Positions 53,947 through 56,658 of a DNA stretch of 64,000 nt are shown here, one piece after another; position 1 is the first letter of the stretch, and each line of letters begins with the position of its first letter. Made by a program: the position numbers. The stretch comes from Escherichia coli (lineage in GTDB: Bacteria > Pseudomonadota > Gammaproteobacteria > Enterobacterales > Enterobacteriaceae): NCBI RefSeq assembly GCF_003991155.1, contig NZ_CP031293.1; one strand, written 5' to 3'.

Positions 53947-56658
53947 TCAGGCGCGGATCGAGCAGCGGTGTCGCCACTTCAATACGATAATCAATATTGC
54001 GCGTCATCCAGTCGGCGGAAGAAAGGTAGACCTTTTTATCGCCGCCATTTTCAAAAATATAAACCCGGTCATGTTCAAGGTAACGGTCAACAATACTGAT
54101 GGCACGAATGTTGTCGCTAATGCCTTCCAGATTGGGGATCAGCGAACACATGCCGCGAACCAGCAGATTAACCGGTACGCCGGAGCTGGAGGCCGCATAC
54201 AGACGATCAACCAGGCCTTTATCGACAAGGTTATTTAGCTTCAGGGTGATACCGCTGGGCAGCCCTTGCTGCGCGTTGGCGATTTCGCGGTCCACCATTT
54301 CATACAACAGGCGGCGGGAGTTTTGCGGCGACACCATTAAATAATCAAATGTCACCGGACGGTATGGGTTTTCAATAAAGTTGAACACCCGCCGTACTTC
54401 GTTGGTGATGCGCGCATCGGCGGTCAGCAACGAATAGTCAGTATAAAGACGCGCGGTTTTTTCGTTAAAATTTCCGGTCCCGATGTGTGCGTAACGCACC
54501 ACTTCACCGTTTTCTTTACGTGAAATCAGGAACAGTTTGGCGTGAATTTTCAGCCCCGGCGCAGAGAAGATAACGTGCACGCCTGCTTCGGTCAGGCGCT
54601 TCGCCCAGTGAATGTTGGCTTCTTCGTCGAAACGCGCCTGTAACTCAACCACCACGGTGACTTTCTTACCGTTGTGTGCGGCGTGGATCATCGAGTCGAT
54701 GATGCGTGAATCTTTCGCCACGCGGTAAATGTTAATTTTAATCGCCAGTACGCTCGGGTCGAACGAAGCCTGACGCAGCAGTTCCAGCACATGCTCAAAG
54801 GTATGATAAGGATAATAGAGCAACACATCGCGTTCGCGAATGGCATCAAAACCATTGCGGAACTGGGCTTTATCAAACCAAATGTGGCGTAAACGCGGCA
54901 GTGGTTTGTTCACCAGATTGGCTTTGCCGACATTGGGGAAATTAATAAAGTCTTTAAAATTATGATAACGACCGCCGGGGACGATGGAGTCGTAGCGGGA
55001 AATAGTCAGTTTTTCGCGTAACACTTCAACCAGCGCATTGGGCATATCGCGCTGATAAACAAAACGCACCGGCTCAGCAGTTAAACGCTGCTTGAGACTG
55101 GAAGACATCAACTCCATCAGGCTGGCTTCCATCTCATGCACTAAATCGTATTCGGCATCGCGGGTCATCTTCATTGAATAGGCATTCAGCGCGTCATAAT
55201 CAAAGAAGCCTTTGAAAATATCATCAAGGCAGTAACGCAGAATGTTATCCAGAAGAATCATCGGCTTGCGTCGACGCGGCGCTTCTGGCGGTAAATTCAC
55301 AAAGCGCGGCACTTTATCTGATGGGATCTCCAGCAGCGCGTAACGGATGGTATCGCCACGGATAATTTCCACCGCCAGATAGGTGTAATCATCTTTCAGG
55401 AACTGCACTAAATCAGTGTCAGGATTGATTAAAATCGGCGTAATGTGCTGACGCAGATACTGCTTAAAATAATGACGCAGCCAGTTTTGTTGATTGACGG
55501 AGAGCTGGCGTTCATTAATCAGGAAGATCTGGTTGCGCGCCATCTCCAGCAACAACTCGTTGTAGAGGCCGTCGAATTCCTGATCGGCTTTCAGCACCCG
55601 GGACTGAATTTTGCCCAGTAAATGGCGGGAATGAGAGTTGGAACCTTGTTCTTCGCTAATAATGATGCGTCGCTTCAGTTCAGCGAAGCGGACTTTATAG
55701 AACTCATCAAGGTTATTGGAATAGATCCCCAGGAAACGCATCCTTTCAATCAGCGGGTTAGATTTGTCCGCCGCTTCCTGAAGCACGCGTTCATTGAACG
55801 ATAACCAACTGAGCTCTTTTTCGATGTATAGCTTTTCCTGACCCATTACCACTTTTACTCCGTTTTATTCACGGGACACTGCCTGGATATTATGGCGAGC
55901 AATATTGGCAGATGTCCAACTATGCCAGAAAAGGGGGAAAAAAACTGCTGGAGCTTGCGATTTACAGGTGAATTGAAAAACGCCAGCGGCAGAGCTGGCG
56001 CTTTAACTACGGGGGCATTACTCGTCGGCAGCGTAGCCCTGCGGCGGCAGACGTTGACCATCCAGCCACGCGGCGTTTTCGTGCATTTTCAGACGACCAT
56101 CGGCAAACCAGCTAATCACCAGTGGATAAATAGCGTGTTCCTGGGTTTGCACGCGGGCGGTGATGTCATCTTCCGTATCACCAGCAAATACCGGGACTTT
56201 CGCCTGTAAAATAACCGGGCCACCGTCCAGTTCATCGGTGACGAAATGCACCGATGTACCGTGCTCTTCATCGCCATTTTCCAGCGCCTGACGATGGGTG
56301 TGTAATCCGGGATATTTCGGCAGCAGAGAAGGGTGAATGTTCAGCAAACGCCCGGCATAGTGGGAGACAAACGCCGGGCTGAGAATGCGCATAAAACCAG
56401 CCAGCACGACCACATCGGGTGCGTACATGTTGATTTCATGAATCAACTCCCGGTCATAGGCTTCACGACTGTCAAACGCGCTGGCGATGAGCGTATGCGT
56501 TGCAATACCCGCCTGGCGGGCGCGTTCAAGGCCGAACGCGTCGGCCTTATTGCTGAAAACTGCCCGTACGGTGCCTTTAATTTTGTTGGTTTTGCAGGCG
56601 TCAATAATTGCCTGCAAATTACTTCCGTTGCCGGAAATAAGCACCACAATATTCATTA

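What the first reader, a model, noticed from the sequence alone, without database searches (positions are those of the whole stretch)
56654..56658. Overlapping stop/start (TAATG) coupling purM and purN
On the minus strand the purM stop TAA shares its last A with the purN ATG, a classic arrangement for translational coupling.
Basis: seen in the sequence. Interest (0 to 1): 0.1.

Follow-up and report, generated by a model that had tools for sequence, protein, structure and literature searches.

The report
Known purM–purN one-base stop/start overlap
In this stretch of E. coli chromosome the stop codon of the purine gene purM shares one base with the start codon of the next gene, purN. This is a real, conserved, common and already catalogued arrangement that probably lets ribosomes pass from one gene to the next, so it is ordinary.

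Summary
On the minus strand, 56658..56654 reads TAATG. The purM stop TAA (56658..56656) and the purN ATG (56656..56654) share base 56656.

The window is identical to an E. coli chromosome. RefSeq annotates the same two coordinates, and both proteins score far above their NCBIfam cut-offs.

The overlap is already published. Huber et al. 2023 list b2499 purM / b2500 purN with distance -1. They also give the PurM–PurN gene pair a median distance of -4 across 802 pairs.

My own sample of 93 adjacent purM–purN pairs puts 78 within -8..+6 nt. Enterobacteriaceae switch between TAATG, ATGA and TAAATG.

purN has a weak Shine-Dalgarno match (-2.7 kcal/mol). Its start lies in a predicted unpaired, A/U-rich linker. 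Both features fit termination–reinitiation coupling.

Coupling has not been tested for this pair. Published ribosome profiling gives purN only 0.40 of purM's ribosome density and 0.52 of its translation efficiency, so any coupling is partial. Independent initiation is not excluded.

Verdict: real, ordinary, already known, low interest.

The parts
56656..57693 (-). purM coding sequence (phosphoribosylformylglycinamidine cyclo-ligase, AIR synthetase). GTG start at 57693..57691, 345 codons, TAA stop at 56658..56656.
   Evidence: RefSeq CDS WP_001296287.1 on the identical sequence. TIGR00878 scores 514.8 bits against a cut-off of 236.
56018..56656 (-). purN coding sequence (phosphoribosylglycinamide formyltransferase). 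ATG start at 56656..56654, 212 codons.
   Evidence: RefSeq CDS WP_001028623.1. TIGR00639 scores 281.7 bits, with residues 1-191 aligned to profile positions 1-191. The ORF aligns over residues 1-212, with two substitutions (N76D, T161S), to the PDB chains 1c2t/1cde/1gar, which begin MNIVVL.
56654..56658 (-). TAATG junction. The purM stop TAA and the purN start ATG share base 56656, giving an intergenic distance of -1.
   Evidence: Read directly. Listed as -1 for b2499/b2500 in Huber et al. 2023 Supplementary Table S2, and as ORF_distance 0 in Burkhardt et al. 2017. The 71-base stretch around it is at least 99% identical in 5085 of 5425 E. coli genomes, and the lowest-ranked hit keeps TAATG.
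56653..56655 (-). Second in-frame stop for purM (TGA), directly after TAA. It is formed by the TG of the purN ATG plus the next A, so the sequence TAATGA carries both the -1 and the latent -4 overlap motif.
   Evidence: The purM frame after Glu reads TAA TGA ATA. Citrobacter, Enterobacter and Leclercia orthologues read GAATGA, the -4 form, which is 3 nt shorter in the alignment than the GAATAATGA orthologues such as Superficieibacter and Pseudocitrobacter.
56659..56676 (-). The 18 bases upstream of the purN ATG, inside the purM 3' end, where a ribosome-binding site would sit. It contains only a weak match (GUGG).
   Evidence: Best anti-Shine-Dalgarno duplex is -2.7 kcal/mol, about rank 40 of the 47 genes in the window. 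Burkhardt et al. list aSD -3.68 for purN against -6.68 for purM. Most Enterobacteriaceae orthologues give the same weak value.
56651..56660 (-). Predicted unpaired A/U-rich linker (AAUAAUGAAU) holding the stop/start. It lies between an upstream hairpin (56725..56661) and a downstream hairpin (56650..56607).
   Evidence: The 121-nt fold has MFE -37.7 kcal/mol and z-score -3.18, with positions 67-76 unpaired. The junction is also unpaired in the consensus fold of 20 Enterobacterales sequences, but that consensus is weak (-11.46 kcal/mol, covariation term -1.08, 2 compensatory pairs).
56642..56647 (-). Two in-frame GTG codons (purN codons 4 and 5), the only alternative purN starts downstream of the ATG.
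   Evidence: They are rejected as starts. Vibrio orthologues read GTT GTT here and have the ATG as their only candidate start, and the family profile aligns from residue 1.
57757..57772 (.). PurR operator-like palindrome AAGCAAACGTTTGCGA, 64-79 nt upstream of the purM GTG. This is the transcriptional control point of the purMN operon.
   Evidence: Two mismatches to ACGCAAACGTTTGCGT. purMN is described as a PurR-regulated operon in PMC10912719.

Best explanation
This is the junction of the E. coli purMN operon. purM and purN are transcribed together from the PurR-controlled promoter upstream of purM. purN has almost no Shine-Dalgarno sequence of its own, and its AUG shares a base with the purM UAA stop. 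The most likely mechanism is termination–reinitiation. A ribosome that has finished PurM is released at UAA with the purN AUG directly beside it, in an unpaired A/U-rich stretch, and a fraction of these ribosomes (or their 30S subunits) start PurN without leaving the mRNA. The yield is below one-to-one, with purN translated at roughly 0.4-0.5 of the purM rate.

Shown: the anatomy, the gene identities, the weak ribosome-binding site, conservation of a very short spacing across bacteria, and the unequal ribosome densities. Inferred: that purN translation depends on purM translation.
For: - **Anatomy and identity:**
- **Weak ribosome-binding site:** -2.7 kcal/mol, about rank 40 of 47 genes in the window. 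The published aSD is -3.68 for purN against -6.68 for purM. Most of the 19 Enterobacterales orthologues give the same weak value.
- **Conserved spacing:** all 19 Enterobacterales orthologues have spacing -4, -1 or 0. Of 93 adjacent pairs, 78 lie within -8..+6 and 55 overlap. Huber et al. 2023 give PurM–PurN a median of -4 with quartiles -6.1 and 5 over 802 pairs.
- **Distance dependence:** experiments on native E. coli pairs show that reinitiation needs overlaps or very short distances. About 20 nt almost abolishes it, and the last 15 nt of the upstream gene suffice.
- **Precedent:** 4 of 5 native -4 pairs tested in E. coli were coupled.
- **Single transcript:** mRNA levels of the two ORFs are similar (82.8 and 64.3) and both pass the filter against internal promoters. 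No promoter-like site inside purM rises above chance.
- **Accessible start:** the start lies in a predicted open linker.
Against: - No experiment on this pair was found.
- An overlap does not guarantee coupling. bioBF, a -4 pair with a weak Shine-Dalgarno sequence, initiates de novo.
- Genome-wide, overlapping pairs vary in relative translation about as much as non-overlapping pairs.
- purN ribosome density is only 0.40 of purM's. An independent, weaker initiation would explain this equally well.
- An unstructured A/U-rich start can recruit ribosomes without a Shine-Dalgarno sequence.
- PurM and PurN are not subunits of a complex (marked 'CMPLX not'), so the usual selective argument of fixed stoichiometry does not apply.
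Confidence: 0.6

Rival explanations
1. Independent initiation. purN is translated mainly by ribosomes that bind de novo at its unstructured, A/U-rich start region. The one-base overlap is only gene packing, a by-product of selection for compact operons and of the way start and stop codons can share bases.
For: The start lies in a predicted unpaired linker, with mean unpaired probability 0.57 over -15..+6. The translation efficiency of purN (0.617) differs from that of purM (1.188). bioBF shows de novo initiation despite an overlap and a weak Shine-Dalgarno sequence. Overlapping pairs vary in relative translation about as much as non-overlapping pairs.
Against: The Shine-Dalgarno match is among the weakest in the window. 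The spacing stays within -4..0 in every Enterobacterales orthologue and within -8..+6 in 84% of 93 pairs, even though the sequences and the form of the junction change. That points to selection on the spacing itself. Most tested native E. coli overlaps are coupled.
Confidence: 0.3
2. Separate expression. A promoter inside the 3' part of purM gives purN its own transcript, so the overlap has little effect on PurN output.
For: One promoter-like match lies on the minus strand at 56723..56696 (GTGAAA-16-TATCAT, 9 of 12), about 40 nt upstream of the purN ATG.
Against: The scan found 3 promoter-like sites where 2.1 ± 1.8 are expected by chance. purN mRNA (64.3) is lower than purM mRNA (82.8), not higher, and both ORFs pass the Gini filter designed to remove genes with internal promoters. 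The literature treats purMN as one PurR-regulated operon.
Confidence: 0.05
3. Wrong start. purN really begins at one of the in-frame GTG codons 4 or 5 (56647..56642), so there is a 9-12 nt gap and no overlap.
For: The two GTG codons exist and are conserved in Enterobacteriaceae.
Against: The PurN family profile aligns from residue 1 to profile position 1. Vibrio orthologues have GTT GTT at these positions and only the ATG as a candidate start. The residues M-(K)-N-I-V-V are conserved as protein. RefSeq and the PDB chains use the ATG. My recollection, not checked here, is that N-terminal sequencing of purified E. coli GAR transformylase agreed with the ATG start.
Confidence: 0.02

Closest known systems
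E. coli trpB–trpA and trpE–trpD junctions, the classical translationally coupled overlapping stop/start pairs (Oppenheim & Yanofsky 1980; Aksoy et al. 1984, as cited in PMC5318159)
   Same: Co-directional biosynthetic genes in one operon whose stop and start codons overlap. My recollection, not checked here, is that trpB–trpA uses the -1 type TGATG.
   Different: In trp, coupling was shown experimentally and the products form complexes with fixed stoichiometry. For purM–purN no experiment was found, and the proteins are not complex subunits ('CMPLX not').
Native E. coli -4 overlap pairs tested for termination–reinitiation: hyfHI, astDB, ydbH/ynbE, menDH and bioBF (Huber et al. 2019, PMC6728339)
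   Same: Short stop/start overlap, with the ribosome-binding region of the downstream gene inside the upstream coding sequence and variable Shine-Dalgarno strength.
   Different: Those pairs overlap by 4 nt (ATGA), whereas this one overlaps by 1 nt (TAATG). Their coupling was measured, with 4 coupled and 1 not. purMN was not among them.
PurM–PurN gene pair across prokaryotes (COG0150@COG0299 in Huber et al. 2023, Supplementary Table S4)
   Same: The same orthologous pair in the same order. The published median distance is -4, with quartiles -6.1 and 5, over 802 pairs. My sample of 93 pairs has a median of -1 and quartiles -4 and 2.
   Different: E. coli uses the -1 form rather than the commoner -4 form. 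Close relatives (Citrobacter, Enterobacter, Leclercia) use -4, and Kluyvera and Siccibacter use 0.
Bacillus subtilis 12-gene pur operon with groups of overlapping genes (Ebbole & Zalkin 1987). The paper is cited in PMC10912719. The overlap groups, including purM-purN-purH, are from my own knowledge.
   Same: purM is directly followed by purN with overlapping coding ends. Bacillus-like loci in my sample show ATGA or TAATG junctions (L019, L031, L099, L115 and L122).
   Different: Firmicute junctions carry strong GGAGG ribosome-binding sites inside purM, for example -10.5 kcal/mol in L099. The E. coli junction has almost none.
Animal trifunctional GART protein (GARS–AIRS–GARTfase), from established knowledge and not tested here
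   Same: The AIR synthetase (PurM) and GAR transformylase (PurN) activities are adjacent in the same order.
   Different: In animals they are fused into one polypeptide. In E. coli they are two proteins separated by a stop. purN is in a different frame, two tandem stops (TAA TGA) close the purM frame, and no slippery heptamer lies nearby, so no fusion product is expected.

Membership tests
purM (AIR synthetase, TIGR00878) | The whole-protein score reaches the curated NCBIfam cut-off. | tested here: met
   514.8 bits against a cut-off of 236.35, with residues 7-335 on profile positions 1-331 of 332. RefSeq names it purM.
purN (GAR formyltransferase, TIGR00639) | The whole-protein score reaches the curated NCBIfam cut-off, and the alignment starts at the proposed N-terminus. 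| tested here: met
   281.7 bits against a cut-off of 150.1, with residues 1-191 on profile positions 1-191 of 192. It aligns over residues 1-212 to solved E. coli GAR transformylase chains, with two substitutions.
Overlapping stop/start gene pair (-1 class, TAATG/TGATG/TAGTG) | [quoted passage not shown] | tested here: met
   TAATG at 56658..56654 on the minus strand, with shared base 56656. Listed as -1 in Huber et al. 2023 Table S2.
Translationally coupled pair (termination–reinitiation) | Both genes lie on one mRNA. | tested here: inconclusive
   No terminator-like site and no above-chance promoter lie between them. Published mRNA levels are similar and both pass the internal-promoter filter. 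The pair is called the purMN operon in the literature. I did not examine transcript mapping itself.
Translationally coupled pair (termination–reinitiation) | Stop-to-start distance lies in the range that permits reinitiation, about -8 to +6 nt. | tested here: met
   The distance is -1. The range comes from experiments and genome statistics in PMC10666635.
Translationally coupled pair (termination–reinitiation) | Translation of the downstream gene depends on ribosomes reaching the upstream stop codon. | not testable with these tools
   This needs a premature-stop or spacer construct with protein and mRNA measurement. No such experiment on purMN was found. Ribosome densities of 98.3 and 39.7 are compatible with partial coupling and with independent initiation.
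Translationally coupled pair (termination–reinitiation) | Supporting rather than defining: the downstream gene lacks a strong independent ribosome-binding site, and the short spacing is conserved in orthologues. | tested here: met
   Shine-Dalgarno duplex of -2.7 kcal/mol, about rank 40 of 47. 19 of 19 Enterobacterales orthologues have spacing -4, -1 or 0, and 78 of 93 pairs overall lie within -8..+6.
Coupling by unmasking of a structured start site (RBS-sequestering hairpin opened by the upstream ribosome) | The downstream start or ribosome-binding site is paired in a conserved stem that the upstream ribosome must melt. | tested here: not met
   The stop/start lies in an unpaired linker in the E. 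coli fold and in the 20-sequence consensus. The flanking helices have little covariation (term -1.08, 2 compensatory pairs).

The most novel reading that the evidence does not exclude
Within Enterobacteriaceae the purM/purN junction exists as a natural series: TAATG (-1; Escherichia, Superficieibacter, Pseudocitrobacter, Mangrovibacter), ATGA (-4; Citrobacter, Enterobacter, Leclercia, Pseudescherichia) and TAAATG (0; Kluyvera, Siccibacter). The forms differ from one another by indels of 1-3 nt and leave the PurM C-terminus and the PurN start intact, because TAATGA holds both motifs. The most novel reading not excluded is that these forms set different PurN:PurM synthesis ratios (about 0.4-0.5 in E. 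coli) and are selected for that reason, rather than being neutral equivalents.
Probability: 0.12. Interest if true: 0.2.

Novelty: already known. Interest (0 to 1): 0.05.

Why it matters
It matters little beyond correct annotation. The junction confirms that purM and purN form one expression unit, and it fixes the purN start at the ATG.

It is one more example of the second most common gene spacing in prokaryotes. The -1 overlap of b2499/b2500 is already tabulated in the literature and in RefSeq.

Its only modest use would be as a natural test case for comparing reinitiation efficiency at -1, -4 and 0 spacings. That is possible because close relatives carry all three forms, with an unchanged PurM C-terminus and near-identical PurN N-termini.

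Tried and rejected
- **Literature on coupling at purMN:** no paper held the terms purM, purN and translational coupling together. A wider search found nothing on the E. coli junction. Huber 2019 and the 2025 review do not mention the pair.
- **Original sequence paper:** the paper I recall as Smith & Daum 1987 (J Biol Chem) is not held, so nothing is cited from it. Li et al. 2014 is not held either.
- **Masked start site opened by the upstream ribosome:** rejected. The junction is unpaired in the E. coli fold and in the consensus fold, and the flanking stems lack covariation.
- **Internal purN promoter:** there is one 9-of-12 match, within chance expectation, and published mRNA data argue against it.
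- **Alternative GTG starts for purN:** rejected.
- **PurM–PurN fusion by read-through or frameshift:** rejected. Two tandem stops close the purM frame, no X XXY YYZ heptamer occurs in the last 90 nt of purM, and the purN frame is closed by a TGA 9 codons upstream of the ATG.
- **The pentamer as a signal in itself:** rejected. TAATG occurs 138 times in the window.

Full report
**What is in the sequence**

On the minus strand the bases 56658..56654 read TAATG. The upstream reading frame ends ...CGC GTG GTT ATC GAA TAA. The downstream frame begins ATG AAT ATT GTG GTG CTT ATT TCC GGC. The mechanical ORF list gives a 212-codon ORF at 56018..56656 and a long ORF ending at 56656, so the two share base 56656.

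**What the genes are**

The window is E. coli chromosome. A 2.2-kb query matches 5425 of 5426 complete E. coli genomes. The whole 64-kb window has no mismatch to the reverse complement of NZ_CP029747.1 3073293-3137292. RefSeq annotates purM and purN there with a shared base.

In window coordinates purM is 57693..56656 and purN is 56656..56018, both on the minus strand. The purM product scores 514.8 bits on TIGR00878 and the purN product 281.7 bits on TIGR00639. Both are far above the curated cut-offs, and the PurN alignment runs from residue 1 to profile position 1. The purN product aligns over its full 212 residues, with two substitutions, to solved E. coli GAR transformylase chains that begin MNIVVL. 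The ORF tool starts purM at GTG 57708. The annotated start is the GTG five codons further in, at 57693.

**Is it more than chance?**

The pentamer alone is not, because TAATG occurs 138 times in the window. Its position is, since it joins two full-length, confidently identified genes.

Among the 36 same-strand neighbouring gene pairs in the window, purM–purN is the only overlap. Within E. coli the 71 bases around the junction are at least 99% identical in 5085 of 5425 genomes, and the lowest-ranked hit still reads TAATG.

**Comparison across species**

I scanned one genome per species for the PurN motif SGNGSNLQAI as a degenerate DNA pattern. This gave 120 loci from Proteobacteria, Bacillota, Chloroflexota, Actinomycetota, Spirochaetota and others.

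In 93 of them purM lies directly upstream, on the same strand, with its end near the purN start. purN starts were assigned by a rule: an ATG if present, otherwise GTG or TTG, lying 5-18 codons before the motif, and the one nearest the purM stop. The distances were:

| Distance (nt) | Pairs |
|---|---|
| -4 | 29 |
| -1 | 14 |
| +2 | 14 |
| 0 | 4 |
| Any overlap (below 0) | 55 |
| Within -8..+6 | 78 (84%) |

The median is -1, with quartiles -4 and 2. For all unidirectional pairs in E. coli the -8..+6 share is 707 of 2987, or 24%. The binomial p of 2e-34 overstates the case, because the orthologues are related and the start rule favours short distances.

The 19 Enterobacterales orthologues all have -4, -1 or 0:

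- **TAATG (-1):** Escherichia albertii, Superficieibacter, Pseudocitrobacter, Mangrovibacter and others.
- **ATGA (-4):** Citrobacter, Enterobacter, Leclercia, Pseudescherichia and Arsenophonus.
- **TAAATG (0):** Kluyvera and Siccibacter.

The E. coli sequence GAA TAA TGA holds a second in-frame stop. It differs from the Citrobacter form GAA TGA only by the three bases TAA, so the forms can be interconverted without changing the end of PurM or the purN start codon.

**This is already published**

Huber et al. 2023 list 'b2499 purM / b2500 purN, -1, CMPLX not' in their table of E. coli unidirectional pairs. For the COG pair PurM–PurN they give a median distance of -4, with quartiles -6.1 and 5, over 802 pairs. 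Burkhardt et al. 2017 list purN with ORF_distance 0 under their definition. The same papers and a 2025 review state that -4 and then -1 are the commonest spacings of co-directional genes in prokaryotes.

**How it most likely works**

purN has almost no ribosome-binding site. The best duplex with the 16S rRNA 3' end in the 18 bases upstream is -2.7 kcal/mol, about rank 40 of the 47 genes in the window. The same weak value recurs in most Enterobacteriaceae orthologues. The published value is -3.68 for purN against -6.68 for purM.

A 121-nt fold around the junction is more stable than shuffled sequence (MFE -37.7 kcal/mol, z-score -3.18). It places AAUAAUGAAU in an unpaired linker between two hairpins. 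A consensus fold of 20 Enterobacterales sequences also leaves the junction unpaired, but it gives little support for the hairpins themselves (-11.46 kcal/mol, covariation term -1.08). So the start is not masked, and coupling by melting of a masking stem is not supported.

The remaining coupling mechanism is termination–reinitiation. [quoted passage not shown] Four of five native -4 pairs tested were coupled. I therefore take reinitiation by ribosomes that have just terminated purM as the best explanation for a substantial part of purN translation.

**What limits that conclusion**

No experiment on purMN was found. bioBF shows that an overlap with a weak Shine-Dalgarno sequence can still initiate independently. 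Genome-wide, overlapping pairs vary in relative translation about as much as non-overlapping pairs.

| Measure in E. coli K-12 (Burkhardt et al. 2017) | purM | purN | purN/purM |
|---|---|---|---|
| Ribosome density | 98.3 | 39.7 | 0.40 |
| mRNA level | 82.8 | 64.3 | 0.78 |
| Translation efficiency | 1.188 | 0.617 | 0.52 |
| DMS Gini index, start region | 0.329 | 0.553 | – |

The higher Gini index at the purN start region is consistent with the predicted hairpin just downstream of the start.

These numbers fit partial reinitiation. They fit a weaker independent initiation at an open A/U-rich start equally well. PurM and PurN are not subunits of one complex, so the usual argument of fixed stoichiometry does not explain the overlap.

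**Context**

A PurR-operator-like palindrome, AAGCAAACGTTTGCGA, lies at 57757..57772, 64-79 nt upstream of the purM start. This matches the description of purMN as a PurR-regulated operon. The promoter and terminator scan of 55800..58050 found no terminator-like site and only chance-level promoter-like sites. One of those lies inside purM at 56723..56696.

**Verdict**

The feature is ordinary and already known. Interest is 0.05.

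Noticed in passing
window 57691-57708 (minus strand): The mechanical ORF for purM begins at GTG 57708 (350 aa, MGTQAVTDK...). RefSeq starts purM at the second GTG, 57693 (345 aa). 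Both are GTG, and the annotated one has a modest Shine-Dalgarno match (-5.5 kcal/mol).
   Followed up: partly
window 56710-56718 and 56667-56675 (minus strand): A 9-nt direct repeat, AACGCGTGG, occurs twice within 52 nt of the purM 3' end, in different reading frames. Its palindromic core ACGCGT forms the inner stem of the predicted hairpin just upstream of the junction. The second copy reads AGCGTGTGG or AGCGCGTGG in most Enterobacteriaceae relatives (kept only in E. albertii), so the repeat is probably coincidental.
   Followed up: partly
loci L012, L016, L022, L033, L062, L063, L086 (ATGA); L021, L023, L029, L064, L077, L081, L082, L091 (TAATG); L059, L113 (TAAATG): Enterobacteriaceae carry three forms of the purM/purN junction (-4, -1 and 0) that differ by indels of 1-3 nt. 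The PurM C-terminus and the PurN start codon are unaffected.
   Followed up: partly
window 19884-19889 (+), 10550-10556 (+), 53775-53782 (-): Other very tight same-strand junctions in the window are yfhM–pbpC (gap 0, TAAATG type), hscA–fdx (gap 1) and ppk–ppx (gap 4). pbpC and ppx have essentially no Shine-Dalgarno match (+0.4 and +0.1 kcal/mol), which also suggests coupling.
   Followed up: no
window 60114-60116 (+): RefSeq annotates the hda gene (DnaA inactivator) with a CTG start codon, seen when listing the sequences upstream of gene starts.
   Followed up: no
window 31828-43235 (+): This is a block of three genes: the intimin-like inverse autotransporter SinH, a SinI-family protein and an 8-kb adhesion-domain protein. 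They lie between the der/zinc-ribbon genes and xseA.
   Followed up: no
window 13411-13536 (-): A small toxic inner-membrane protein gene, timP (42 codons), is annotated between sseA and sseB.
   Followed up: no
window 60641-60656: A second PurR-box-like match (ACGCGCGCGTTTGCGT, 3 mismatches) lies inside the hda coding sequence. At this stringency 0.56 matches are expected by chance, so it is probably not a site.
   Followed up: no
window 55847-56017 (minus strand): The 171-nt spacer between purN and ppk contains no terminator-like hairpin by the simple scan. One promoter-like match (TGGACA-18-CATAAT, 10 of 12) lies at 55918..55889, upstream of ppk.
   Followed up: no
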